This document shows, in pieces, positions 13,690 to 39,014 of a DNA stretch of 64,000 nt; position 1 is the first letter of the stretch, and each line of letters starts with the position of its first letter. The notes under the pieces are model-generated. The model did not search any database. It saw only the letters and a list, made by a program, of their open reading frames with translations, and had not been told where the DNA came from. The DNA lies in the IMG/VR virus record IMGVR_UViG_3300032770_000013, positions 1-64,000 of that record; one strand, 5' to 3'. The stretch is from a virus. Made by a program: the position numbers and the translations under genes.

Positions 13690-13764
13690 TGGCAAGGGAC
13701 CGGAGATTTGAACTCCGACTGCATGGTTTTGGAGACCAGCCGACTGCCGTTATCTTAGTCCCCT
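13690..13764 (-). tRNA. tRNA-Trp(CCA)
   Basis: Cloverleaf, CCA end. Confidence 0.9.
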
Positions 13765-13765
13765 A

Positions 13766-13837
13766 TGGTACTGCGTGAGGGTTACGATCCCTCTTGAGCC
13801 GGATTCACAGTCCGTCCCCTGTCCAACAGCACGCAGC
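13766..13837 (-). tRNA. tRNA-His(GTG)
   Basis: Cloverleaf with short D-arm, A73, no G-1. Confidence 0.85.
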
Positions 13838-13842
13838 ATATT

Positions 13843-13916
13843 TGGTAGCGCGCCCCGGTGACGATCCGGGCCAACCATCCTTATGAGAGACAGCCGTTCA
13901 CCAGCGAACGCGCGCT
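13843..13916 (-). tRNA. tRNA-Met(CAT)
   Basis: Cloverleaf, atypical T-loop. Confidence 0.8.
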
Positions 13917-13923
13917 GTAAATT

Positions 13924-13999
13924 TGGCAGCCGAGGTAGGTCTCGAACCCACAACCTTCAGATTCAAAGTCTGCTGCGCTACCAATTACGCCACTCGGCC
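13924..13999 (-). tRNA. tRNA-Gln(TTG)
   Basis: Cloverleaf, CCA end. Confidence 0.92.
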
Positions 14000-14003
14000 G
14001 TAT

Positions 14004-14078
14004 TGGCACCCCGTGCGGGTGTCGATCCCGCTTCTCCGGTTTGAAGGACCGGGATTCTAGCCGGTAAACTAACGGGGC
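14004..14078 (-). tRNA. tRNA-Glu(TTC)
   Basis: Cloverleaf, C33. Confidence 0.88.
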
Positions 14079-14083
14079 AAAAA

Positions 14084-14157
14084 TGGTGCGGGCTCGGGGA
14101 CTCGAACCCCGAACCTCTGGTTGGAAGCCAGATACGTTACCTTTACGCTAAGCCCGC
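14084..14157 (-). tRNA. tRNA-Gly(TCC)
   Basis: Cloverleaf, CCA end. Confidence 0.92.
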
Positions 14158-14243
14158 GGCGGAAAGCTGAGAGCACGATTCTCACACCCGAAGGTGCCCT
14201 TCGTTTAGCAAACGAGGACGGGATCCCACCCGCTTAGCTTTCC
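14158..14243 (-). tRNA. tRNA-Ser(GCT)
   Basis: Long variable arm; ends GCC directly against tRNA-Gly. Confidence 0.85.
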
Positions 14244-14247
14244 GTAT

Positions 14248-14324
14248 TGGTGATCTCGGGAAGACTCGAACTCCCACACAATCGTTTAGGAAACGATGGC
14301 TCTGTCCAGTTGAGCTACGAGACC
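14248..14324 (-). tRNA. tRNA-Arg(CCT)
   Basis: Cloverleaf, CCA end. Confidence 0.92.
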
Positions 14325-14325
14325 G

Positions 14326-14396
14326 TGGTCTGGCGAGGACTCGAACCTCGATCCAACGCTTAGAAGGCGTCGCTTTATCCCGTTAAGTACCAGACC
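14326..14396 (-). tRNA. tRNA-Arg(TCT)
   Basis: Cloverleaf; full CCA not encoded after the discriminator. Confidence 0.85.
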
Positions 14397-14401
14397 GTAT
14401 T

Positions 14402-14475
14402 TGGAGGAACAGGGGAGAATCAAACTCCCATACGCGGGGTTGCAATCCGCTGCATCATCACTCTGCCACTGTCCC
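14402..14475 (-). tRNA. tRNA-Cys(GCA)
   Basis: Cloverleaf, U73. Confidence 0.88.
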
Positions 14476-14479
14476 GTAT

Positions 14480-14553
14480 TGGCACCCCTTGATGGAATCG
14501 AACCACCCTCTGCTGGTTCAGAGCCAGCCGTCCTGCCGATGAACGAAAGGGGT
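14480..14553 (-). tRNA. tRNA-Gln(CTG)
   Basis: Cloverleaf, CCA end. Confidence 0.9.
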
Positions 14554-14557
14554 AGAT

Positions 14558-14633
14558 TGGTCTGGGTGCGGTGTTCTGCCCACCGTCCTTCTGGTTCCAA
14601 GCCAGAGACTCTTCTAGCACGAGCTTCACCCAG
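14558..14633 (-). tRNA. tRNA-Pro(TGG)
   Basis: Cloverleaf, atypical D- and T-loops. Confidence 0.8.
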
Positions 14634-14639
14634 ATAAAA

Positions 14640-14718
14640 TGGAGCACACGGGGAGAGTCGAACTCCCATTTTCCAGTTACGGTTCCAATGATTCGTAGTC
14701 ATGGCCGATTACGTGTGC
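14640..14718 (-). tRNA. Atypical D-armless tRNA-like gene, anticodon ACG (Arg)
   Basis: 7-bp acceptor stem, T-arm, anticodon arm and CCA; no D-arm; about 20-nt extra region. Confidence 0.65.
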
Positions 14719-14719
14719 A

Positions 14720-14794
14720 TGGAGCCGCCAGCGGGTTCCGACCCCGCTTCATTTGGTTGAGAACCAAATATCCTAGCCACTAGACGATGGCGGC
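14720..14794 (-). tRNA. tRNA-Glu(CTC)
   Basis: Cloverleaf, CCA end. Confidence 0.88.
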
Positions 14795-14798
14795 AAGT

Positions 14799-14882
14799 TG
14801 GCTGGAGAGGGAGGGATCGAACCTCCGCCACGATGGGGACTCCGGTTAACAGCCGGGCACATTACCGCTCTGTCACTCTCCA
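14799..14882 (-). tRNA. tRNA-Asn(GTT)
   Basis: Cloverleaf with extended variable region. Confidence 0.88.
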
Positions 14883-14883
14883 A

Positions 14884-14955
14884 TGGTGGAGAAACGGAGA
14901 ATCGAACTCCGAACGGCAGCCTTGCAAGGGGTGCCTGTGTCCCAACACTTTCCCC
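14884..14955 (-). tRNA. tRNA-Ala(TGC)
   Basis: G3:U70 pair, short D-arm. Confidence 0.85.
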
Positions 14956-14959
14956 GAAA

Positions 14960-15035
14960 TGGTGCCCGGTCGTGGTTTCGAGCCACGCTCTCCTGCTCTT
15001 CAGGCAGGCGCTTTCACCAGATTAGCTTACCAGGC
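14960..15035 (-). tRNA. tRNA-Phe(GAA)
   Basis: Cloverleaf, CCA end. Confidence 0.9.
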
Positions 15036-15036
15036 T

Positions 15037-15110
15037 TGGTGCGGACACGGGGAGTCGAACCCCGGCCACTTCGTTGGCAACGAAGGAGACTGCCGTAATC
15101 CTTTGTCCGC
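15037..15110 (-). tRNA. tRNA-Gly(GCC)
   Basis: Cloverleaf, CCA end. Confidence 0.9.
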
Positions 15111-15111
15111 A

Positions 15112-15197
15112 TGGTAGGCGAGGCAGGACTCGAACCTGCGAAGACCGAAGCCGAGGGTTTTACAGACCCTTGTCGTTGCCGCTTGAACTACTCGCCC
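15112..15197 (-). tRNA. tRNA-Tyr(GTA)
   Basis: Long variable arm, CCA end. Confidence 0.92.
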
Positions 15198-15202
15198 TTA
15201 AT

Positions 15203-15276
15203 TGGTTGCGCAGGCCAGAGTCGCACTGGCGTCTTCAGGTTATGAGCCTGATATGGAACTCCTCCACTACCGCGCG
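15203..15276 (-). tRNA. tRNA-Met(CAT), initiator-like
   Basis: C1:A72 mismatch. Confidence 0.82.
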
Positions 15277-15282
15277 TCAGTT

Positions 15283-15371
15283 TGGCGGAAACGTGAGGTC
15301 TTGATCCCCAATGGCTTGCGCCATCCATCTCGCTTCGAACGAGCGCCGAGCACTTGCCCAGTTACGTTTCC
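15283..15371 (-). tRNA. tRNA-Ser(CGA)
   Basis: Long variable arm, G73. Confidence 0.85.
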
Positions 15372-15376
15372 GTATT

Positions 15377-15463
15377 TGGCGGAAGGCTGAGAACATGATT
15401 CTCATACGTTGCCGTACCAGCCGCTTTCCAAGCGGTGCCGGAGCCCTGTCCGGTTAACCTTCC
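15377..15463 (-). tRNA. tRNA-Ser(GGA)
   Basis: Long variable arm, G73. Confidence 0.87.
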
Positions 15464-15467
15464 GTAT

Positions 15468-15552
15468 TGGCGGATGGCTGAGGTGTCGATCCCCATACCT
15501 TGCGGTACTACGAGTATTCAAAGCTCGCTGCCGGGCCGCCGGCAAACCATCC
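15468..15552 (-). tRNA. tRNA-Ser(TGA)
   Basis: Long variable arm, G73. Confidence 0.8.
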
Positions 15553-15557
15553 GTATT

Positions 15558-15634
15558 TGGCGTTCCCTCGGTGATTCGAACACCGGGCCTCGGGCTTCGG
15601 AAACCCGCGCTCTTTCCTGCTGAGCTAAGGGAAC
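15558..15634 (-). tRNA. tRNA-Arg(CCG)
   Basis: Cloverleaf, CCA end. Confidence 0.92.
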
Positions 15635-15948
15635 AAAATTCCCGCCTTTTCAATAAAGACAATCTGCTTGTCGTCCTTCAAGATCGTCGGCCCGCGGCCG
15701 CACTTTCCGTCGAGCGCTTGAAACAGCGCCGTGATGAGGTTGTCCAAGTCCGGCCCGGTCGGGTCGATAAACAGCGCCGATAAGGAAATCTGGTGCTTCA
15801 GTTGCACAAGGCCAGCTTCCTGTGCTGCTTTCCACAATTCCTCTCGATAGCGCTTTAGCACCTCGCGATGAACGCGGCGGTGCGGTGCGCCATGCACATA
15901 GACCGTCAGCAGGCGCCGTGGATGATCGTACTGAACCTTGCAGCGCAT
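15625..15948 (-). CDS. rusA: RusA-like Holliday junction resolvase inside the tRNA array
   Basis: PDLDNL...DG...KDDKQI motif; GAGG RBS before ATG at 15948. Confidence 0.75.
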   Translation of the reverse strand: MRCKVQYDHPRRLLTVYVHGAPHRRVHREVLKRYREELWKAAQEAGLVQLKHQISLSALFIDPTGPDLDNLITALFQALDGKCGRGPTILKDDKQIVFIEKAGILFP

Positions 15949-15960
15949 AATCGCCTCGTT

Positions 15961-16035
15961 TGGTGCTTGCGCCGGGATTCGAACCCAGGTCAAACGGTTA
16001 TGAGCCGTCGGCACTAGCCACTGTGCTACACAAGC
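15961..16035 (-). tRNA. tRNA with CAT anticodon, probably Ile2 (lysidine type)
   Basis: Cloverleaf; third CAT tRNA in the array; Ile2-like arms. Confidence 0.8.
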
Positions 16036-16038
16036 AAT

Positions 16039-16115
16039 TGGTCGGGGTGGCAGGCTTCGATCCTGCGACCACTCGCTTCCGAAGCGAGGACTCTACCTGG
16101 CTGAGCTACACCCCG
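16039..16115 (-). tRNA. tRNA-Pro(CGG)
   Basis: Cloverleaf, CCA end. Confidence 0.92.
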
Positions 16116-16121
16116 TTGAAT

Positions 16122-16196
16122 TGGCGCGACTGGCGGGTGCTGACCCCGCGTCCTTTCCCTTGACAGGGGAGTGCTCCACCGTTGAGCTACAGCCGC
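16122..16196 (-). tRNA. tRNA-Asp(GTC)
   Basis: Cloverleaf, G73. Confidence 0.88.
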
Positions 16197-16200
16197 ATTA

Positions 16201-16276
16201 TGGTGTGCATGGGGCGAATCGAACGCCCACTGAACAGCTTCTCAAGCTGGTCCCTCTGCCGTTGGGGTACATGCAC
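16201..16276 (-). tRNA. tRNA-Leu(GAG)
   Basis: Cloverleaf, short variable loop. Confidence 0.88.
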
Positions 16277-16279
16277 GTT

Positions 16280-16355
16280 TGGTAGACCACCGGGGATTCG
16301 AACCCCGACCTCAGGGATTAAGAGTCCCGCGCTCTGCCGTTGATGCTAGTGGTCT
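16280..16355 (-). tRNA. tRNA-Lys(CTT)
   Basis: Cloverleaf, CCA end. Confidence 0.9.
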
Positions 16356-16360
16356 GTGAA

Positions 16361-16443
16361 TGGCGAACCCCGGTGGTTTCGAGCCACTTGGCGACGGGTT
16401 AAAAGTCCGGTCCCTCTCCATTCGGGTTTAAGCCTCGGGGTCC
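16361..16443 (-). tRNA. tRNA-Lys(TTT), atypical
   Basis: About 8 extra nt between acceptor stem and D-stem. Confidence 0.75.
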
Positions 16444-16490
16444 AAAGACCCCGCGTTTGAGTGGGTCACTCATTTTTCGAGTTCCTTATT

Positions 16491-16564
16491 TGGTGCGCCA
16501 GTGAGGAATCGAACCTCCGTCCCACGGTTATCGGCCGCGTTCTCTGCCATTGAGATACAAGCGC
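16491..16564 (-). tRNA. tRNA-Ile(GAT)
   Basis: Cloverleaf, C33. Confidence 0.88.
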
Positions 16565-16570
16565 ATTTGT

Positions 16571-16645
16571 TGGTGCGTCGTCGGTGAGTTGAACACCGGA
16601 CCTTTTGCGTGTCGAGCAAACGTTCCACCGCTGAACTAACGACGC
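16571..16645 (-). tRNA. tRNA-Val(GAC)
   Basis: Cloverleaf, C33. Confidence 0.88.
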
Positions 16646-16646
16646 A

Positions 16647-16721
16647 TGGTAGGCGCTGAGAATTACGATATCTCGACCTTCGCGGTGTAAACGCGACGCT
16701 CTTCCTCTGAGCTAAGCGCCT
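16647..16721 (-). tRNA. tRNA-Val(TAC)
   Basis: Cloverleaf, CCA end. Confidence 0.88.
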
Positions 16722-16727
16722 GTAAAT

Positions 16728-16804
16728 TGGTGCCCTAGGCAGGCCACGATCCTGCACTGAAAAGGGTTTAAGCCTTCTCCCTCTGCCAATTGGGGTACTA
16801 GGGC
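16728..16804 (-). tRNA. tRNA-Leu(TAA)
   Basis: Cloverleaf, short variable loop. Confidence 0.88.
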
Positions 16805-16805
16805 G

Positions 16806-16881
16806 TGGTGCACGTCTGGCGATTTGAACGCCGACTGAACGGGGTTTGAAGCCGCTGCCTCTGCCATTGGGCTAGACGTGC
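16806..16881 (-). tRNA. tRNA-Leu(CAA)
   Basis: Cloverleaf; register matches the other Leu tRNAs. Confidence 0.82.
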
Positions 16882-16885
16882 AAAT

Positions 16886-16962
16886 TGGTAGCCTCGGGGA
16901 GATTCGAACTCCCAACGCATGCCTTCTGAGGGCATCGTCTCTGCCAATTGGACTACGAGGCC
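16886..16962 (-). tRNA. tRNA-Leu(CAG)
   Basis: Cloverleaf, short variable loop. Confidence 0.9.
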
Positions 16963-16967
16963 GTAAA

Positions 16968-17041
16968 TGGTGCCCTCTACAGGTTACGATCCTGTGTCCG
17001 CTCCTTACCAAAGAGCAATTCTGCCATTGAACTAAGAGGGC
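16968..17041 (-). tRNA. tRNA-Thr(GGT)
   Basis: Cloverleaf, CCA end. Confidence 0.88.
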
Positions 17042-17046
17042 GCGAT

Positions 17047-17121
17047 TGGTGCCGGCTGGGTGAATCGAACACCCGCACTCTGCTTACAAGACAGAACCTC
17101 TGCCACTAAGGATAAGCCGGC
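17047..17121 (-). tRNA. tRNA-Thr(TGT)
   Basis: Cloverleaf, CCA end. Confidence 0.9.
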
Positions 17122-17122
17122 A

Positions 17123-17196
17123 TGGTGCTGGTTCCGTGAATCGAACACGGGCAACCTTCTTACGAGGGAGGTGGACTGCCACTATCCTAAGCCAGC
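17123..17196 (-). tRNA. tRNA-Thr(CGT)
   Basis: Cloverleaf, CCA end. Confidence 0.9.
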
Positions 17197-18128: not shown

Positions 18129-19046
18129 CTACAATTTCGCCATCGGCACTATGCCAAGCCGATCGAGCGCATTCCCAATGCAAGCGGCTGGCGTCAGAAT
18201 ATCTCTAAACCTCTCAAACTGCTTGGCATACAGCGCCTTCCAGAACGGCTTGTAGGATTCCGCCTCCCGGTAAAACCCGTCCAAGCTATCCGCAAAGCTG
18301 ATGATCTGATTCCAAGGCGCAGCCAATTCATGCGGCTCCGCAATGACCGGGCGTCCAAGGCTTAATGCCGACGCGCAGCGAGAGGACGACACCAGCCCCA
18401 TTTTCTCAAGGATCCGGATTTGCACGATAATCCGCGCACTCTGCATTTCCAGATCACGGGTCTCCTGCGCCGAAGCCGTTGGGTTATGCAAGGAAATCAA
18501 CTTGACCGTCCCGCGCCGACCAAGCTTCCTGAGAATTTTATATCGCCTGTTCGACACTGAGCCATAAAACCCGAAATCATGATCTGGCTGGCGGATTTGC
18601 GGCCGCATCATGCCGGGAGAATAGCCGAGTTCAATCTGCTCTGTCGGTGCATATTGCCCATACCAATGCGCTGTGTTCGGCACTAGAGCTAAGACGGCAT
18701 CGGCATATTTGGCGGCTTCGGGAAAAAGAGCCTGCCGCAAAACCATAAATCGATCGGCAGCATGATTAAAACCAACAAATCCAGGCTCCTCACAAGGCTC
18801 TTCAGTTGCAACAAAGATGAACCGACAATCATGTAATCTGCGCGCCTCTTTAAGCATGGCAATCGAAAGTAAATTAAATCCTTCAAAAATCAGATTTACA
18901 CCATCCTTTCCACGTAGAAATTCATCGTCCGAATGATCTATTTGATGACCTAAAGATCGGAGTTGATGGACAATAATTTGCGATGGGTCTTGTAATGACA
19001 GCCTGCCAATTTGTGAGTGATTAAAAAGATTTAACCGAAAGCGCAA
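18129..19046 (-). CDS. Glycosyltransferase-like protein (GT-B type)
   Basis: DFGFYGS...RR and VSSSRC...RPVIAE motifs; paralog of 53585-54772. Confidence 0.55.
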   Translation of the reverse strand: MRFRLNLFNHSQIGRLSLQDPSQIIVHQLRSLGHQIDHSDDEFLRGKDGVNLIFEGFNLLSIAMLKEARRLHDCRFIFVATEEPCEEPGFVGFNHAADRFMVLRQALFPEAAKYADAVLALVPNTAHWYGQYAPTEQIELGYSPGMMRPQIRQPDHDFGFYGSVSNRRYKILRKLGRRGTVKLISLHNPTASAQETRDLEMQSARIIVQIRILEKMGLVSSSRCASALSLGRPVIAEPHELAAPWNQIISFADSLDGFYREAESYKPFWKALYAKQFERFRDILTPAACIGNALDRLGIVPMAKL

Positions 19047-19048
19047 AA

Positions 19049-19139
19049 TCGCCTCGCCATACCAAACCGGGCCGATGCCAAAACATGCCTTACCTTTGCG
19101 AGCCGGGGCTTACCAAACTCCAGCATGCCGCACCATAAC
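19049..19139 (-). ncRNA. GGY-NN pentamer tract E (putative guide RNA)
   Basis: About 18 units, ending GGCGAGGCGATTTT. Confidence 0.75.
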
Positions 19140-19157
19140 TCAAAGCGATAAAAAAAT

Positions 19158-19254
19158 CCTCGCCGCGCCACACGCTGCCAGACCGTGCCGTGCCTCAGCA
19201 GACCCCGGCTCGCCCCGACAGGCCACGCAAGACCCGGCCGCAGCGTACCATGCC
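19158..19254 (-). ncRNA. GGY-NN pentamer tract D (putative guide RNA)
   Basis: 19 in-phase units, ending GGCGAGGA-T7. Confidence 0.8.
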
Positions 19255-19277
19255 TCCTTCAAAAATCGCCAAAATAT

Positions 19278-19410
19278 CCTCGCCTAATCCAAACCTCACC
19301 CGGCCTTGTCATACCTTGCCACAGCTCACTGAGCCAAGCCGGGCCGCACTTAACCTAACCTAGCCACGCCCCGCGTTGCCAAATCGCGCCCGGGATCGCC
19401 ATGCCCAACC
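19278..19410 (-). ncRNA. GGY-NN pentamer tract C (putative guide RNA)
   Basis: About 26 units, ending GGCGAGGATATTTT. Confidence 0.75.
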
Positions 19411-19421
19411 GCTCCGCAAAC

Positions 19422-20036
19422 CTACTTGAAGTTTACGATTCCAAAGCGGCCGAATGTCGGCCTAAAATCACCGATGCCGATCAAGCGACCAGCACTTTCA
19501 ATCGTTTCGCGCAAGGCATTGTGATCGACGTATTCCGGCAGCATCACGAGAAGATCAAACGTGACCTTCCAGCCGGCGCGCAAGGCAGGCCGCACGCGGT
19601 TGATACCTTGGCGCTGAATCATAACGCGCCGTTTATCCAAATAATCCCAATCCTTTACGCCGAGAGTGGCGAGCGGACTGGTGACGACAATGGCGGCCTT
19701 GAACAGGTCCATTGCGGACTTCCGCGGTGACCGCGGATCTTGCCGGAATTTCGCCGCGTTGATGATTGAGCCGCGAAGATACTCGCCGGGGACACAGATT
19801 TCACCGGCGTCGTTCCGATAGACGTAGGATTCTACGTCATCGGTCTTTTTGCCTTTGGAATTTTTAGCGGCGCGGGCTTTTTCATCGACCGCCTCGCTAT
19901 TCCATCTGTGCATTAAAAGATCGGCGGCCCCTTGAATCGTCACGCGAACCGGATATGGCTCGCTGTGAGAGATGACTTCGTTGCCACCGGAAGTCGGCTC
20001 AGAAATGTGGATAACTTTAGCTTTAGTTGCAGTCAT
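19422..20036 (-). CDS. Stand-alone RAMP/Cas7-like RNA-binding protein (Vipr-like)
   Basis: VTIQG..DLLMH, VPGEYLRGSI, RVRP and C-terminal G-loop GIGDFRPTFGRF; flanked by pentamer tracts. Confidence 0.75.
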   Translation of the reverse strand: MTATKAKVIHISEPTSGGNEVISHSEPYPVRVTIQGAADLLMHRWNSEAVDEKARAAKNSKGKKTDDVESYVYRNDAGEICVPGEYLRGSIINAAKFRQDPRSPRKSAMDLFKAAIVVTSPLATLGVKDWDYLDKRRVMIQRQGINRVRPALRAGWKVTFDLLVMLPEYVDHNALRETIESAGRLIGIGDFRPTFGRFGIVNFK

Positions 20037-20060
20037 TGTATTTGCTCCATTTTGGTTGAT

Positions 20061-20149
20061 GGAGACCTCACCGCACCGATGCTTGCCCTAGCTTGCCCAA
20101 CGCGACCTGACCAAGCCGCACCAAAGCGCGCCGTAAGCAAAAGGTCTCC
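20061..20149 (-). ncRNA. GGY-NN pentamer tract B closed by a GGAGACC/GGTCTCC stem
   Basis: About 14 units inside a 7-bp inverted repeat. Confidence 0.75.
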
Positions 20150-20269
20150 CCCGCGCTGAGCCTGCTAAGCCCGGAACGCGGTTCAGGGGTCACTTTTCAG
20201 CGACACTCAGACACGGGGAAGTTCGTGAGAGGTGCCGCGTTCTTCGCGTTAGCAGCCGCGAATGGAAAA

Positions 20270-20297
20270 ATAATACCGAAAATAAATCGAATGTCTA
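20270..20297 (-). promoter_or_regulatory. Sigma70-like promoter for tract B and the RAMP gene
   Basis: TAGACA-16nt-TATTAT. Confidence 0.5.
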
Positions 20298-20316
20298 GTG
20301 CCATTCACCAGCCCAA

Positions 20317-20332
20317 TGTTTCACGTGAAACA
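20317..20332. promoter_or_regulatory. parS-like ParB binding site
   Basis: Perfect palindrome TGTTTCACGTGAAACA. Confidence 0.7.
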
Positions 20333-20345
20333 TTTTGGTAATGTC

Positions 20346-20464
20346 GAACGGAGCCCGAAGGCCCCGTTCTCCCTTACCGAAACTCACCGCAGCCAACCGG
20401 ACCGGACAAGACCATGCCGAAGCCCACAACGGCAAACCATACCAAGGCCAGCACAAGCCCCACC
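20346..20464 (-). ncRNA. GGY-NN pentamer tract A with 3' hairpin
   Basis: About 18 units then GAACGGGGCC-TTCG-GGCTCCGTTC; TATAAT upstream at 20478-20483. Confidence 0.75.
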
Positions 20465-20517
20465 ACGTGAGGACAACATTATACAGTAATTCGTAACGTT
20501 CCAGTATATTTTCAGCT

Positions 20518-23500
20518 TCATGTTTTGCGATTCTCAACATGAGCGAACGGCTTGGTGGTCTTACCATGTTCAAGCCATTTTTTGAAATCCGGCAACGTCA
20601 TTTGGTGAATTGCGCCGACACGGTCCACTCCTCGTCCATCTGCAAATGCGCGGTGATAGACATTGGTGGCATGCTTGAGCGATGCCGCGCCAAGAATTAT
20701 TTTGTGCTCATCGAACTTCTTAGTGTCGGCGTCAACTTGATCCACGATGTAAACACATTTCGCTCGCGGGTGGTCGCACAAAAATACGTCTAGGTTATCA
20801 CCATCGGCACCATCGTGGCGTTTCAAATATCCGTAGTGGGCTGGAAGCACGCTCCGCCAAGGACGACCATCCTTATCGATGCCGCGACGGATTCCGCCTT
20901 TGCCATTTTCAATGGTGATCTGAAGTCCGAATTTGTGCAGATGGTCCTTTTTGTAATTCCCCGCTGCGATCTGCGCTTTGCTTGGATGCTTTTCGATATT
21001 CCGCACTTCGACTCTTCCCCCATGCGCCCGCTTTGGCGTCAAATTCTCGATTGCCTCATCCTTCGTCTTTCCGGTCGAGAGTAATTCGCCGTCCTTGTCG
21101 TAGACGCCCCATTTATTGAGCGGGATACCGGTAAACTCAGCCGTCAGACCTTGCGGTAATACTCGGCCGCCGCTGGCTCTTGCCTGCGCCTTTTCCTGCT
21201 GAGAGACCGTTGGCCTGCCCTGCAATTCATTCGATATATCGCTGATCCAGTTATCTTTTTGACCAGTGACGTTCATCATGAAGTTGTCGTACAGCTTTTG
21301 CGGTGTTGATTCGCTGCGCGCATCCTCCACGTTGGTCGACGGTCGAAAGTCCGCGTATGGGTCTGGTGCCGGACCGCCATCAGCTCGCTCAATTCTCTCG
21401 CGCGGCCCTATTGGATCGCTTGGATCGACGTCGGCTGTTTGCCGAGCCATCTGCCATTCGGCGTTGGATTGAGATTCGGGATGATCGTCTGGAGCGCAGA
21501 TAGAGCCGCCTTGGGCCATCCCTTGTGTATTGGTCTTTGCGAATGGATCGTAATCTACGGGAACGGTTTGGAAATGAGATGCACCCCCTGCAACCAATCC
21601 GGCGAGGCCGTATTTCTTGATGATGTCGATCAGCTTGTCGTTGAAGACGACGTAATTTCTGGTCGGATTCTCATATGAATTTATCTGCGCCTGAAGGTTT
21701 TTGATCACGCCTTCATCACCGCGCGCTTGGGCTTTTTCTAAAGCTGTCCGCAGTGCCTGCAATTGAGTCGGTGTCGCGCGAGAGCCTTGGTCTAGATATT
21801 TGATACCGGGGATTCCAGCATCGCGAAGTTGCTGCGCCACGCGCTGAACATCGGTGTGACCTTGGCCCGGCGTATGCAGACTGATTTCATTGTTGCGATA
21901 AATCTGCTCGCCGGTCTGATTCGCGTGCGCTTCTGGATGCGCGAGCCAAGCGTCTTTTAATTTTTGCTGGACAGCCGGACTCTGCTCACTCAGCGGCTTA
22001 TCCCAATCAAGGAAATGCTCGGGATCGGCGTTGATGTTGACTTCGTAGAGATTGCCAGCCTTTGATGGGTATGGTATTTCACTGCGAACATGAAGATCGC
22101 CCTTATCTGCGCTTCTTGCGGCAAGAGCTTCCTCAAGCATCGCAGTGCTTTGAGGCCCAATCAGCGGACGTTTTGCAGTCGCGAGTGCCACGTAAGGGGC
22201 CAGCATATCGACGGCCTTAACGCGGCTGGCTACAAGATTATTCGCGTTGGTAGGAAGCAAGTCTACGAGCATAGATGGATTATTGAGCAAAGCATCGGAC
22301 GTAAACTCCTTCCCACCGAGCATGTGCATCACATCAACGGGAAGAAGTCGGACAACCGCCTTTCCAATCTCCGGGTCTTGGAGGAGTCCACGCATCACCG
22401 GGAGCACGTCGCTCCTACTTTCGACATCGAGCGAGCGAAAGCCCTTTACGAGCAGGGGATTGGATACCGCAAACTTGCCGAAATTTTCGGCGTGGCTCGC
22501 CAAAACATCAGAGGGTGCTTCATACGTAGGGGCTGGCATGTTACCGGCCGTACCCGCCGTTCTATAACTCTCGGCAGTTGATGGATGCTCAGCCAGATAA
22601 ATTCCATGCCCATAAGCCTGTGCGCCTTCGCCGGTGCCGATCTTCGATAGATCGAACTTGTCGAAGTCGTAGGGGCTGCCGTGATAGGCGCGGATGCCTT
22701 GGGGTTGTGGAACTTCGGACAACAAAGGATGAATGAGCTTATCGCTTCCGACATTAGCGGGATCAAACGAATCAAAACGTGATCGCACTTGGCTCGGTTC
22801 AAAGACCATGATGTGCGGACGACCCGGCGTTCCAGTTATCTCCTTCTGCGGATCGCCAATGATCGCATCATATCCAGCGTCCCGAATGGCCTGAGCCTTT
22901 AGCGCCACAGGTGTGTCTTGACCAAGGCCGTGATAAAAAAGCGTGCTGCCGGTCCAGTATTTCAGCGGGCCACCTTCGATCATCTTTTTGGCCTGCTCGG
23001 TGCGGCCGGCGGCTTTCAAAACTTCTGCCGCTTGCTCGGCAGTTATCGGCTGGTCCATGCGAAACGGATTCTGCACTTTGAGCTTGACGGGCATGACGCG
23101 CGGAGTATCGCCGGACCAGGCGCCAGTGTGCTTATTGGCAAATTCAGCGGACGGCGTGAAATAAAAGTTGCCCCCGTATTGTATGTTGTCGCGGACCTTC
23201 ATCGGATCGAAAGCTTCGAACTCCTGCGAGCCAGTCCCGTGGAATGCGTCAATCGTCCAACCTTGCTGTGCGGCTCGCGCCATCCGGCTTGCTTCATCCA
23301 TTGGGAGCGCAGCGCGAGCGGCAGCAGTTAATTCCGGCGCAACCTTTTCGGCCGCCCCCATCGCCACCTTGGCTGCCCGCATTTCCGGCGTCAGCAACCC
23401 GGCAGCCGACATCAGCGCGAAGTTCTGCGCTTCATCGGGCGTCATCTGACCACGCAACGCGCTGATTGCATCATTGACGCCAGTCACATCGCCAGCAACA

Positions 23501-23649
23501 TTGGCGACCTTCCCGGGCATTGATGCTATATCTTGCCCTACAGTCGGTGGCGCAATTGTCTGCCCCGGCTTGGCGACTGGCCCTACCGCGAACGGATCAT
23601 GATCGACCGGAACGAGGTCATAATCAGGCTGCAATTGATCGTCGGGCAC
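20518..23649 (-). CDS. Polyvalent ejected protein: two ADP-ribosyltransferase-like domains and a C-terminal pyrophosphatase-like domain
   Basis: AFHGT..YFTP; AYHGSPYDFDKFD..GHGIYLAE; GNYKK..ITIEN..HYGY..GADGD..FDEHK. Confidence 0.7.
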   Translation of the reverse strand: MPDDQLQPDYDLVPVDHDPFAVGPVAKPGQTIAPPTVGQDIASMPGKVANVAGDVTGVNDAISALRGQMTPDEAQNFALMSAAGLLTPEMRAAKVAMGAAEKVAPELTAAARAALPMDEASRMARAAQQGWTIDAFHGTGSQEFEAFDPMKVRDNIQYGGNFYFTPSAEFANKHTGAWSGDTPRVMPVKLKVQNPFRMDQPITAEQAAEVLKAAGRTEQAKKMIEGGPLKYWTGSTLFYHGLGQDTPVALKAQAIRDAGYDAIIGDPQKEITGTPGRPHIMVFEPSQVRSRFDSFDPANVGSDKLIHPLLSEVPQPQGIRAYHGSPYDFDKFDLSKIGTGEGAQAYGHGIYLAEHPSTAESYRTAGTAGNMPAPTYEAPSDVLASHAENFGKFAVSNPLLVKGFRSLDVESRSDVLPVMRGLLQDPEIGKAVVRLLPVDVMHMLGGKEFTSDALLNNPSMLVDLLPTNANNLVASRVKAVDMLAPYVALATAKRPLIGPQSTAMLEEALAARSADKGDLHVRSEIPYPSKAGNLYEVNINADPEHFLDWDKPLSEQSPAVQQKLKDAWLAHPEAHANQTGEQIYRNNEISLHTPGQGHTDVQRVAQQLRDAGIPGIKYLDQGSRATPTQLQALRTALEKAQARGDEGVIKNLQAQINSYENPTRNYVVFNDKLIDIIKKYGLAGLVAGGASHFQTVPVDYDPFAKTNTQGMAQGGSICAPDDHPESQSNAEWQMARQTADVDPSDPIGPRERIERADGGPAPDPYADFRPSTNVEDARSESTPQKLYDNFMMNVTGQKDNWISDISNELQGRPTVSQQEKAQARASGGRVLPQGLTAEFTGIPLNKWGVYDKDGELLSTGKTKDEAIENLTPKRAHGGRVEVRNIEKHPSKAQIAAGNYKKDHLHKFGLQITIENGKGGIRRGIDKDGRPWRSVLPAHYGYLKRHDGADGDNLDVFLCDHPRAKCVYIVDQVDADTKKFDEHKIILGAASLKHATNVYHRAFADGRGVDRVGAIHQMTLPDFKKWLEHGKTTKPFAHVENRKT
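22090..22581 (+). CDS. HNH endonuclease with zinc finger and HTH, nested antisense within the polyvalent gene
   Basis: CASC..FCSREC; YEHR..VHHINGKKSDNRLSNL; C-terminal HTH. Confidence 0.8.
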   Translation: MKIALICASCGKSFLKHRSALRPNQRTFCSRECHVRGQHIDGLNAAGYKIIRVGRKQVYEHRWIIEQSIGRKLLPTEHVHHINGKKSDNRLSNLRVLEESTHHREHVAPTFDIERAKALYEQGIGYRKLAEIFGVARQNIRGCFIRRGWHVTGRTRRSITLGS

Positions 23650-37070: not shown

Positions 37071-37781
37071 CTAAGCGCGCGGCGGCGTGGCAATCGGGTT
37101 TGGTTGTTTTGGCGTCCAACCTTGCGACTGATACCGTTTGCGCATTTCCTCAGTGTTTGCAGATGCCCACAAATCCTGATAGTGTTTTGACCAACTCGAC
37201 GAACCTTGCGGATCGTCTGTAAGAGCGCCGAAGTCTTTCAAATAGCCATAACCAAATATGAGAGATTCTGCTAGGAAAAGGTCCGGCAGATACAAACTCA
37301 AATAAGTTTGCGGGTTAGTAGCACTCAATGGCGTTGGTCTAATTGTCCCGATAACCTCCATCGTGTATGCCGCATCTGGAGGTGGCCCTACAATGATTGT
37401 CTGGTCCGTTATCATCGCGTAGTATTGCGGGACCGATGGCGTTGTTGTTGCCGTCTCGTTGCCCCACATCCAATCGATGAACTCGCGCGAGGTCGGCACA
37501 AGCTGAACGCGATTGCTGGAGTTGAGCGGATAAAAGACATTCATGCTCTCAGTAACAACAAACCGTCCTTGGTCCTGAGGTAGCGTGAAGCTGCGACTAT
37601 TAGGTGTAAGAGTCGCGCTGGAATCTACAATTACAGAATTTAAAATATCTAATTCTCTGAGGATTCTTTGCTCGGAATCGTCGATCACATTCGGCAAAAA
37701 TGTTTGAAAATTCGGGTCATTCTGAGGAATGACCAGCATGTTGGCCAGCGACTGAACGTATGTCGTATAGGTAAGGCTCAT
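37071..37781 (-). CDS. Head-tail adaptor protein
   Basis: EQRILRELD, PQYYA..VGPPPD and PDLFL motifs. Confidence 0.7.
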   Translation of the reverse strand: MSLTYTTYVQSLANMLVIPQNDPNFQTFLPNVIDDSEQRILRELDILNSVIVDSSATLTPNSRSFTLPQDQGRFVVTESMNVFYPLNSSNRVQLVPTSREFIDWMWGNETATTTPSVPQYYAMITDQTIIVGPPPDAAYTMEVIGTIRPTPLSATNPQTYLSLYLPDLFLAESLIFGYGYLKDFGALTDDPQGSSSWSKHYQDLWASANTEEMRKRYQSQGWTPKQPNPIATPPRA

Positions 37782-37800: not shown

Positions 37801-37915
37801 GAAAGGCCGCCACGTTAGCGACGACCTTTCCACCCCTATCAGACCGGAACTCACCAGAACTCACCCGAGCTAACCATAACCGACCTGATCTCACCGCATC
37901 TCGTCTCACCATAAC
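37801..37915 (-). ncRNA. GNY-NN pentamer tract F with 3' hairpin (putative guide RNA)
   Basis: 17 in-phase units then GAAAGGTCGTC/GGCGGCCTTTC stem. Confidence 0.75.
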
Positions 37916-38103
37916 AAATGTTGACGAGAAAGAAATTTGGCGAGGATGCGCCGGACGGCCTCGGAACGGGTAGGCTTGTCCTCTTGAGTTTGCCTCCATT
38001 GATCGATCGCACCGCGTAATTTCACAGGCAATCTTATCGCGGTCACAGGGTCTTGACCTGTCTGCGGCCTTCCTCTTTTTCGTACTACAGGTATTGACCC
38101 CAT
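37906..38103 (-). CDS. Ribbon-helix-helix transcriptional regulator
   Basis: KRGRP.TG.DP..AIRLP..IDQW..PTRSEAVRRI. Confidence 0.7.
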   Translation of the reverse strand: MGSIPVVRKRGRPQTGQDPVTAIRLPVKLRGAIDQWRQTQEDKPTRSEAVRRILAKFLSRQHLLW

Positions 38104-38149: not shown

Positions 38150-38581
38150 ATGACCTACGAAGAATACATCCGTTCGCCGCAATGGCACGCAAAACGCGAA
38201 CTTGCCCTTGCAAGGGACGGATTTCGTTGCCGAGCATGCGATGCAACCGAAAATCTTGAGGTTCACCATCGGCGCTATCCCAAAATTCTTGGCACGGAAA
38301 AAGTAGACGATTTGACAACGCTCTGCGGCGGCCAAAACGGCTGCCACATGGCCATCACTAATCTCCTTCGATCTCGCAGACATGCCTTGGCGACCATCGA
38401 GGCTTCCACAACAGTCCGAATCAGCATTGGACGCATAGAGGTATCTCATGAACTACAAGAACCTGAAATTTCGGATACGCAGCGTTGCACCCCTGCTCAT
38501 GCACAACGGGCAACTGGCGGACCCACTGAACCACCATGTGAAAGAAATGCGCAAGATTACGAGCAAGCGGATCAAAACTGA
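38150..38581 (+). CDS. HNH endonuclease
   Basis: YEEYIRSPQW..RDGFRCRAC..LEVHHRRY..LTTLC..CH. Confidence 0.8.
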   Translation: MTYEEYIRSPQWHAKRELALARDGFRCRACDATENLEVHHRRYPKILGTEKVDDLTTLCGGQNGCHMAITNLLRSRRHALATIEASTTVRISIGRIEVSHELQEPEISDTQRCTPAHAQRATGGPTEPPCERNAQDYEQADQN

Positions 38582-39014
38582 TTCCGACTTGGAACAACTT
38601 GCCAAGCTGGAATGGTTCGGCTCGCTTTACATCAGCAACGGCGTCCCATGCTTGCCTGGAGAACTCGTAGAGGCGACGTTTGTCAACGCCGCCAAAAAGA
38701 CCAAACGAGGCCAACAAGCTAAAGCCGGCATAATTTCGGACGGCTTTTGGCCAGTTGAATACGATGGGCCAAAAGACTTGGAAGAAATGTGGAAAGATGG
38801 ACGGTTTCGGCTCACTACCGCCGTTCGCGTATAGCGCAACAAGGTTATGAGGACACGACCGATCTTTCGACAGTGGGAATCCACTATCCAAATCGACTAC
38901 CTGCCGGATCAATTGGGCGTCAACGAGATCACAGATATCGTCGCCATCATGGGACGATTGATTGGCTTCGGCGATTGGCGTCCGCGTTTTGGACGCTTTG
39001 AAATCGTCTCTTGA
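38448..39014 (+). pseudogene. Second RAMP/Cas7-like gene interrupted by an in-frame TAG (38832-38834)
   Basis: PLLMHN..LPGE; frame continues RNKVMRTRPIF..GFGDWRPRFGRF to TGA at 39014. Confidence 0.75.

What the first reader, a model, noticed from the sequence alone, without database searches (positions are those of the whole stretch)
19049..20464. Solo RAMP/Cas7-like gene surrounded by five GGY-NN pentamer tracts: a candidate gapped-code RNA-guided system
Seen: five non-coding tracts (A 20372-20464, B 20061-20149, C 19278-19410, D 19158-19254, E 19049-19139) lie on the same strand as a 204-aa ORF. Each is 14-26 five-nt units with a near-constant GGY triplet and a variable NN (e.g. GGCAT GGTAC GCTGC GGCCG GGTCT). 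Each ends GGYRAGG plus a U-tract or a stem. There are no CRISPR repeats and no other cas genes. Known: the C-terminal GIGDFRP..GRF G-loop is RAMP-like, and Cas7-type proteins polymerise along RNA with a fixed period. Inference: one subunit binds each GGY and displays the NN, so the target is read as NN-x-NN-x. Decoding this way gives meaningful protein motifs for most tracts (next findings). This resembles what I recall being described as VIPR systems; that should be checked against the literature.
Basis: partly seen in the sequence, partly recalled or inferred. Interest (0 to 1): 0.97.

Follow-up and report, generated by a model that had tools for sequence, protein, structure and literature searches.

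The report
Phage VIPR RNA-guided silencing locus
This is a phage copy of the recently described VIPR system: a small Cas7-like protein and five guide RNAs built of GGY-NN five-base units. It is a clear new example of a kind already published in 2026, not a new kind, and one guide is aimed at the same gene in rival phages.

Summary
On the minus strand only, five period-5 GGY/NN tracts flank a 204-aa ORF (19422-20036), far above shuffled controls.

The ORF is a Vipr protein:
- It matches the solved SUSP1 Vipr by sequence (E 2e-7 alone, 1.6e-17 as a family profile).
- Its confident model (pLDDT 91.7) is a Cas7/Csm3 fold (Z about 12).
- The residues that hold GGY in SUSP1 Vipr are conserved.

VIPR systems, with the NN-x (1-nt-skip) code, are described in three 2026 bioRxiv preprints.

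New here:
- Tract B, read by that code, matches 27 of 28 NN bases in the vipr gene of related phages, wobble-aligned, and 82% or more in 23 of 81 loci. The phage's own vipr scores only 20/28, partly through synonymous Leu and Arg codon switches.
- Skip lengths 0 and 2 give nothing; skip 3 gives only two 22/28 rows, which I read as the related upstream tract of the closest relative.
- Tracts A and E probably aim at rival alleles of the two flanking genes. This is suggestive only.
- Targets of C and D were not found.
- No vap gene is conserved in this clade.

Also seen: a covarying structured leader upstream of B, and a second vipr, interrupted by a TAG codon, beside an HNH gene.

Verdict: a new member of a known kind, of moderate interest. 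The scan's other first-reader notes on this genome had already proposed the A, B, D and E decodings.

The parts
20373..20464 (-). vrRNA A repeat tract: 18 units, 11 of them exact GGY. A TATAAT box lies just upstream at 20478-20483.
   Evidence: period-5 score 7
20337..20378 (-). 3' hairpin that closes vrRNA A: 10-bp core with a UUCG loop and no U-run after it.
   Evidence: whole-region z-score -3.2
20270..20297 (-). Promoter-like site (TAGACA, 16 nt, TATTAT; 10 of 12 matches) in front of the leader, vrRNA B and vipr.
   Evidence: This is a consensus match only.
20139..20268 (-). Conserved structured leader (three-way junction). Its outer stem covers a GGAG Shine-Dalgarno-like motif.
   Evidence: It is 98% identical in L012/L013 and 75-82% in five other loci. 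96% of cells are paired, against at most 49% when the partners are slid. Seven pairs carry compensatory changes.
20068..20137 (-). vrRNA B: 14 units, and the match runs on to 20058 in two targets. It is a guide against the vipr genes of related phages.
19422..20036 (-). vipr gene, 204 aa. It encodes the RAMP (Cas7-like) protein that binds GGY/NN guide RNA.
19258..19410 (-). vrRNA C: about 25 units followed by a short U-rich tail.
19135..19254 (-). vrRNA D: 19 units followed by a short U-rich tail.
19020..19134 (-). vrRNA E: 16 units followed by a tail with two small hairpins.

Best explanation
The locus is a VIPR (Viral Interference Programmable Repeat) system carried by a complete tailed-phage genome of about 96 kb.

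The proposed mechanism is inferred from the published SUSP1 system, not shown here:
- Vipr protomers polymerise along each vrRNA, one protomer per pentamer.
- Each protomer buries the GGY bases and presents the NN dinucleotide.
- The filament pairs with double-stranded DNA reading NN-x-NN-x, where x is a skipped base that usually falls on the codon wobble position.
- Binding blocks transcription of the bound gene.

vrRNA A has its own promoter and a closing hairpin. A second promoter probably drives the leader, vrRNA B, vipr and the C-D-E array as one transcript that is then cut into guides.

vrRNA B is aimed at codons 37-50 of the vipr gene of related, competing phages. The phage's own vipr escapes through three amino-acid changes and two synonymous codon-family switches, plus a sixth changed codon shared with a weakly matched relative. 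A and E probably target rival alleles of the polyvalent-protein gene and of orf305, the genes on either side of the locus. C and D target elements not yet sampled.
For: Protein:
- phmmer matches the PDB chain 'SUSP1 Vipr protein' at E 2e-7. A family profile matches it at E 1.6e-17 over residues 5-189 of 202.
- The protein belongs to phrog_4652.
- The AlphaFold2 model has pLDDT 91.7. Its best structural matches are all Cas7-type: type VII Cas7 at Z 12.0 (rmsd 4.3 A, 160 aligned) and Csm3 at Z 11.7 (Foldseek E about 1e-7).
- By the alignment, the SUSP1 GGY-binding residues H17, E71, R138, D177, W178 and R179 correspond to H43, E85, R149, D190, F191 and R192. These are invariant or nearly so in the family.

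RNA:
- The period-5 GGY signal is confined to the vipr strand and flanks.
- The same layout occurs in all ten relatives first fetched.
- The closest relative (93% Vipr identity) shares only 20268-19450. Its downstream guides are entirely different.

Code:
- B matches 27/28 NN bases in six loci, 26/28 in four, and 23/28 or more in 23 of 81 loci. In two loci it matches 30/32 over 16 units.
- Skips 0 and 2 give no hit. Skip 3 gives only two 22/28 rows just upstream of vipr in L012/L013, which I read as the related upstream tract there.
- Shuffled unit order reaches at most 20/28.
- My binomial estimate for 27/28 in the 2.24 million positions scanned is about 1e-9.
- The skipped bases fall on wobble positions.
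- No self target reaches 80%, as the paper reports for its own systems.

Phage context: portal, virion and ejection proteins, 31 tRNA genes and a 139-bp terminal repeat.
Against: - Nothing here shows that the tracts are transcribed, processed or bound by the protein.
- One third of the units are not GGY, so some guides may be decaying.
- Targets of C and D were not found. A and E reach only 64-66% NN match, and only on the phage's own genes.
- The short U-rich tails show no significant fold, unlike the SUSP1 pseudoknot.
- No vap gene was found.
- SUSP1 K33 has no clear counterpart in the alignment.
Confidence: 0.9

Rival explanations
1. The locus is a decaying or partly inactive VIPR. The protein is intact, but several tracts (A, C, E) are eroding remnants that no longer guide anything.
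For: - Only 61 of 92 units are exact GGY, by my count.
- A and E each contain a six-base unit.
- C is unusually long (25 units, against 9-16 in the paper).
- No target at 80% or more was found for A, C, D or E.
Against: - B has five non-GGY units yet matches its target at 27/28, including at those units. The paper itself notes frequent internal degeneracy.
- The best self-hits of A and E fall wobble-aligned in the two adjacent genes.
- The target searches were narrow: exact patterns, plus about 1.1 Mb of related loci.
Confidence: 0.15
2. Some tracts are not weapons. They are decoys or regulators that steer the phage's own or a rival's Vipr to harmless or host sites, as described for satellite-borne solo vrRNAs.
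For: - Paper 10.64898/2026.10.15.759431 shows that solo vrRNAs redirect Vipr to host repeats.
- C and D have no target among relatives or in the phage's own genome.
Against: - The host is unknown and no host match was tested.
- The tracts sit inside a vipr-positive locus, not alone.
- B clearly has a rival coding gene as its target.
Confidence: 0.1
3. The locus is a minimal CRISPR-Cas (type III or VII-like) remnant, and the tracts are unrelated G-rich sequence.
For: The best structural matches are Csm3 and type VII Cas7.
Against: - There is no repeat-spacer array.
- No other cas domain was found in the four neighbouring proteins scanned.
- The protein's direct sequence match is to Vipr, not to a Cas7 family.
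- Tract B works as a gapped guide.
Confidence: 0.01

Closest known systems
SUSP1 / Pseudomonas fulva VIPR (type II), bioRxiv 10.64898/2026.04.26.720920 and 10.64898/2026.04.26.720927
   Same: - A Vipr protein of about 200 aa with the same G-loop and thumb residues.
- GGY/NN pentamer guides on the vipr strand, both upstream and in a downstream array.
- A 1-nt-skip, wobble-aligned code.
- No self-targeting.
- Phage-borne.
   Different: - Only distant sequence similarity to SUSP1 Vipr.
- No vap gene.
- Longer guides (14-25 units).
- Short U-rich tails instead of a pseudoknot.
- A structured leader not mentioned in the papers' main text.
- The VIPR type (I-VII) could not be assigned without the authors' tree.
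vipr-targeting solo vrRNAs of VIPR-null SUSP1-like phages, bioRxiv 10.64898/2026.10.15.759431
   Same: - The guide is aimed at a competitor's vipr coding sequence.
- It is wobble-aligned.
- The self-match is lower than the non-self match.
   Different: - Here the anti-vipr guide sits in a phage that keeps its own vipr.
- Its own gene must therefore escape, and does so partly through synonymous Leu (TTA) and Arg (AGA) codons.
Cas7-family RAMPs of class 1 CRISPR (Csm3, type VII Cas7, gRAMP)
   Same: - The RRM core, thumb hairpin and glycine-rich loop.
- The protein polymerises along a guide RNA with a fixed period.
   Different: - The period is 5 rather than 6.
- The guide is built into tandem repeats rather than spacers.
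- There are no Cas10/Cas11/Cas5/Cas6 partners, no repeat-spacer array and no adaptation genes.

Membership tests
VIPR | Protein homologous to Vipr | tested here: met
   PDB 36pp_D SUSP1 Vipr: E 2e-7 for the single sequence and E 1.6e-17 for the profile, covering 5-189 of 202.
VIPR | RAMP fold with RRM core, thumb and G-loop | tested here: met
   Model pLDDT 91.7. Z is 12.0 (rmsd 4.3 A, 160 aligned) to type VII Cas7 and 11.7 to Csm3. The thumb hairpin is at 132-152 and the G-loop at 187-198.
VIPR | Residues that hold G1, G2 and Y3 of the repeat | tested here: met
   H43, E85, R149, D190, F191 (W in SUSP1) and R192 align to H17, E71, R138, D177, W178 and R179. They are conserved in alignments A1 and A2. 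K33 has no clear counterpart.
VIPR | Tandem YNNGG (GGY/NN) repeats, at least four units, beside vipr on its strand | tested here: met
   Five tracts of 14-25 units. The same layout is seen in relatives.
VIPR | NN hypervariable between close relatives | tested here: met
   The relative with 93% identical Vipr shares no downstream guide. Homology stops at the vipr end.
VIPR | Natural target matched at 80% NN or more under the 1-nt-skip rule | tested here: met
   Met for B only: 27/28 in six loci. Skips 0 and 2 give nothing; skip 3 gives only two 22/28 rows just upstream of vipr in L012/L013. Not met for A, C, D or E.
VIPR | No self-target at 80% or more | tested here: met
   The best own-genome matches are 52-71%.
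VIPR | Conserved 3' tail capping each guide | tested here: inconclusive
   A U-rich tail starting GGAT is shared with the closest relatives, but no significant fold was found.
VIPR | Accessory vap gene | tested here: not met
   No neighbouring gene is conserved across the 82 loci of this clade. orf305 is absent from the flanks of the 81 related loci searched. The paper lists six vap genes for seven types, so I infer that vap is not universal.
VIPR | Guides expressed and bound by Vipr | not testable with these tools
Class 1 CRISPR-Cas | Repeat-spacer array and further cas genes | tested here: not met
   No such array was found. The four neighbouring proteins scanned carry no cas domains.

The most novel reading that the evidence does not exclude
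The locus behaves as a selfish cassette. Its guides A, B and E are aimed at rival alleles of exactly the three genes it sits among: the polyvalent protein gene, vipr and orf305. The resident copies are recoded to escape. A covarying three-way-junction leader that hides the ribosome-binding site controls vipr translation or guide processing. Neither feature is described for VIPR in the three preprints' main texts.
Probability: 0.3. Interest if true: 0.55.

Novelty: new member of a known kind. Interest (0 to 1): 0.33.

Why it matters
The locus gives independent, purely computational support for the 1-nt-skip VIPR code, in a Vipr clade far from the E. coli and Pseudomonas systems studied so far.

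It is also a clean natural example of a vipr-positive phage carrying an anti-vipr guide. The phage's own gene escapes partly through synonymous codon-family switches, the one class of silent change that a wobble-skipping code can still see.

The family is large: 5847 homologues in the word-seeded search and 1562 clusters at 50% identity. In this clade it appears to lack any accessory gene.

The structured leader and the second vipr beside an HNH gene are leads for VIPR regulation and diversity.

Tried and rejected
- **Pfam** gave no hit for the 204-aa protein.
- **Rfam** gave no credible family over 18900-20600, and no hammerhead or other ribozyme.
- **Exact NN-x patterns for D** gave 0 hits: units 1-10 and 10-19 in viral contigs, and units 5-16 in genome contigs.
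- **A, C, D and E against 81 related loci** gave no match at 72% or more with any skip length.
- **An all-against-all gapped seed search** of relatives' guides found mainly vipr-directed hits.
- **Relatives of the polyvalent C-terminus** in viral contigs: none found.
- **Protein-level decoding.** E reaches only 8/16 on orf305 homologues, about what chance gives by my estimate. A reaches 11/18 on a conserved motif just before the pyrophosphatase domain of polyvalent proteins. That is suggestive but below the 80% rule.
- **D's best own-genome hits** are at the chance level (21-22/38). The one I translated lies in a 1771-aa ORF and shows no primase-like motif.
- **orf305 as a vap:** rejected, because it is not syntenic with vipr in relatives.
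- **A profile query of 63 diverse Viprs** was too divergent for locus finding.

Full report
**Observation**

The window is the first 64 kb of a single 95,988-bp contig. It has a 139-bp terminal repeat, 55% G+C and 31 tRNA genes. Portal, virion and ejection proteins mark it as a tailed phage.

On the minus strand, a 204-aa ORF (19422-20036) is flanked by five tracts of five-base units. I counted in-phase GGY over 12 units along the whole genome. The count reaches 7-9 only at 19014-19435, 20038-20167 and 20344-20458, all on the minus strand. The plus strand never exceeds 4, and shuffles reach mostly 5 and at most 7.

By my count, with B's units as re-set, exact GGY fills 61 of 92 units. The remaining units keep the phase but are degenerate, so 'near-constant' is too strong. 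There is no CRISPR array in the window.

**The protein**

- Pfam finds nothing.
- phmmer matches the solved 'SUSP1 Vipr protein' (36pp) at E 2e-7.
- A profile of 63 family members matches it at E 1.6e-17 over almost its whole length.
- The protein belongs to phrog_4652, a family of unknown function.
- The AlphaFold2 model is confident, with pLDDT 91.7.
- All top structural matches are Cas7-type RAMPs. Type VII Cas7 gives Z 12.0 (rmsd 4.3 A, 160 aligned) and Csm3 gives Z 11.7.

The structure paper names the residues that hold the GGY bases. By the alignment they correspond to H43, E85, R149, D190, F191 and R192. These are invariant or nearly so in the family.

The family is very large: 5847 hits in the word-seeded search and 1562 clusters at 50% identity.

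**What is known**

VIPR systems are described in three bioRxiv preprints of 2026. According to these:
- Vipr, a RAMP, polymerises on vrRNAs made of GGY/NN pentamers.
- The NN bases pair with DNA while every third target base is skipped, usually the wobble base.
- Binding silences transcription.
- Natural targets are satellites, prophages and other VIPR systems.

**Relatives**

All ten related loci first fetched from viral contigs carry same-strand period-5 tracts next to vipr.

The closest relative has 93% identical Vipr. It shares only 20268-19450, which covers the leader, tract B and vipr, at 86% DNA identity. Its downstream array has different guides and a different number of them.

No neighbouring gene is conserved across 82 loci of this clade, so vipr is 'solo' here. 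The paper lists six vap genes for seven types.

**The code, tested here**

With a 1-nt skip, tract B (14 units, 20137-20068) gave:
- 27/28 NN bases in six loci;
- 26/28 in four loci;
- 23/28 or more in 23 of 81 loci.

Every match lies at codons 37-50 of vipr on the antisense strand, with the skipped base on the wobble position. In two loci the match extends to 30/32 over 16 units.

The controls were clean. Skips of 0 and 2 gave nothing at 72% or more. Skip 3 gave only two 22/28 rows, just upstream of vipr in L012/L013. A skip of 3 restores the five-base period, so I read these as the related upstream tract of that relative. Shuffled unit order reached at most 20/28. By my binomial estimate, 27/28 in the 2.24 million positions scanned has a chance of about 1e-9.

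The phage's own vipr scores 20/28, and the 93% relative scores 21/28. Against the best-matched rival alleles, the resident gene differs at six codons:
- three changed residues;
- one further changed codon, which a weakly matched relative shares;
- two synonymous switches of codon family, Leu to TTA and Arg to AGA.

Those synonymous switches are the kind of silent change a wobble-skipping guide can still see. No guide has a self-match of 80% or more.

One other family member (L084) also carries an upstream guide against other vipr genes, at a different site. Anti-vipr guides are already reported, mainly as solo vrRNAs in phages that have lost vipr.

**The other guides**

- **A.** Its best own-genome match is 23/36, wobble-aligned. 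It lies in the adjacent polyvalent-protein gene, just before its pyrophosphatase domain. Its decoded peptide fits the same conserved motif in homologues at 11/18.
- **E.** Its best own-genome match is 21/32, wobble-aligned, in the adjacent orf305. Homologues fit only 8/16.
- **Status of A and E.** These results are suggestive, not proof. Each own-genome hit alone has a corrected chance of about 0.15-0.25 by my estimate.
- **D and C.** Neither has a match in the phage's own genome or in relatives. Three exact sub-patterns of D found nothing.

**Layout and likely operation (inferred)**

A TATAAT box, tract A and a strong UUCG hairpin form one unit.

A promoter-like site at 20297-20270 precedes a 130-nt leader, tract B, vipr and tracts C-E. 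These are probably transcribed together and then cut.

The tails of C, D and E are short and U-rich. They resemble those of the closest relatives and have no significant fold.

**Seen in passing**

- **Leader.** The leader is more conserved than vipr itself. It is predicted to fold as a three-way junction, with 96% of cells paired and seven compensatory pairs. Slid controls give at most 49% paired and 0-2 such pairs. Its outer stem covers a GGAG motif that, in a relative lacking tract B, lies just before what appears to be the vipr start. No Rfam family matches it, and the first VIPR paper's main text has no occurrence of 'leader'.
- **Second vipr.** It lies at 38448-39014 on the plus strand. 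Both halves match SUSP1 Vipr at about E 1e-9, but an in-frame TAG interrupts it at 38832-38834. An HNH gene overlaps its start, and a G-N-Y period-5 tract lies nearby on the other strand.

**Verdict**

- The system is a new member of a known kind.

Noticed in passing
window 20139-20268 (-): A 130-nt leader lies between a promoter-like site and vrRNA B. It is conserved in seven loci, more strongly than vipr itself. It is predicted to fold as a three-way junction with compensatory changes, and its outer stem covers a GGAG ribosome-binding motif. There is no Rfam match, and the first VIPR paper's main text does not mention a leader.
   Followed up: partly
window 38448-39014 (+), with 38150-38581 (+): A second vipr paralogue. 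Both halves match SUSP1 Vipr at about E 1e-9, but an in-frame TAG interrupts it at 38832-38834. An HNH endonuclease gene overlaps its start. No suppressor tRNA is among the 31 tRNA genes.
   Followed up: partly
window 37826-37920 (-): A period-5 tract of about 16-18 units with a G-N-Y pattern (GGT alternating with GAY, GTT or GCT). It lies on the strand opposite the second vipr, directly upstream of the virion gene 37071-37781.
   Followed up: partly
window 20058-20152 (-): vrRNA B is bracketed by a perfect 7-8-bp inverted repeat (GGAGACC / GGTCTCC). A second small hairpin after it includes the GGAG in front of the vipr start, so alternative pairings could gate translation.
   Followed up: no
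window 13690-17196 (-): An array of 31 tRNA genes lies just downstream of the VIPR locus and orf305.
   Followed up: no
window 20518-23649 (-): A 1043-aa polyvalent protein with ADP-ribosyltransferase and pyrophosphatase domains lies directly upstream of vrRNA A.
   Followed up: partly
L084:9915-9969 (+): A distant family member also carries an upstream guide. It matches 20-21 of 22 NN bases in the vipr genes of seven other loci, at a site different from B's.
   Followed up: partly
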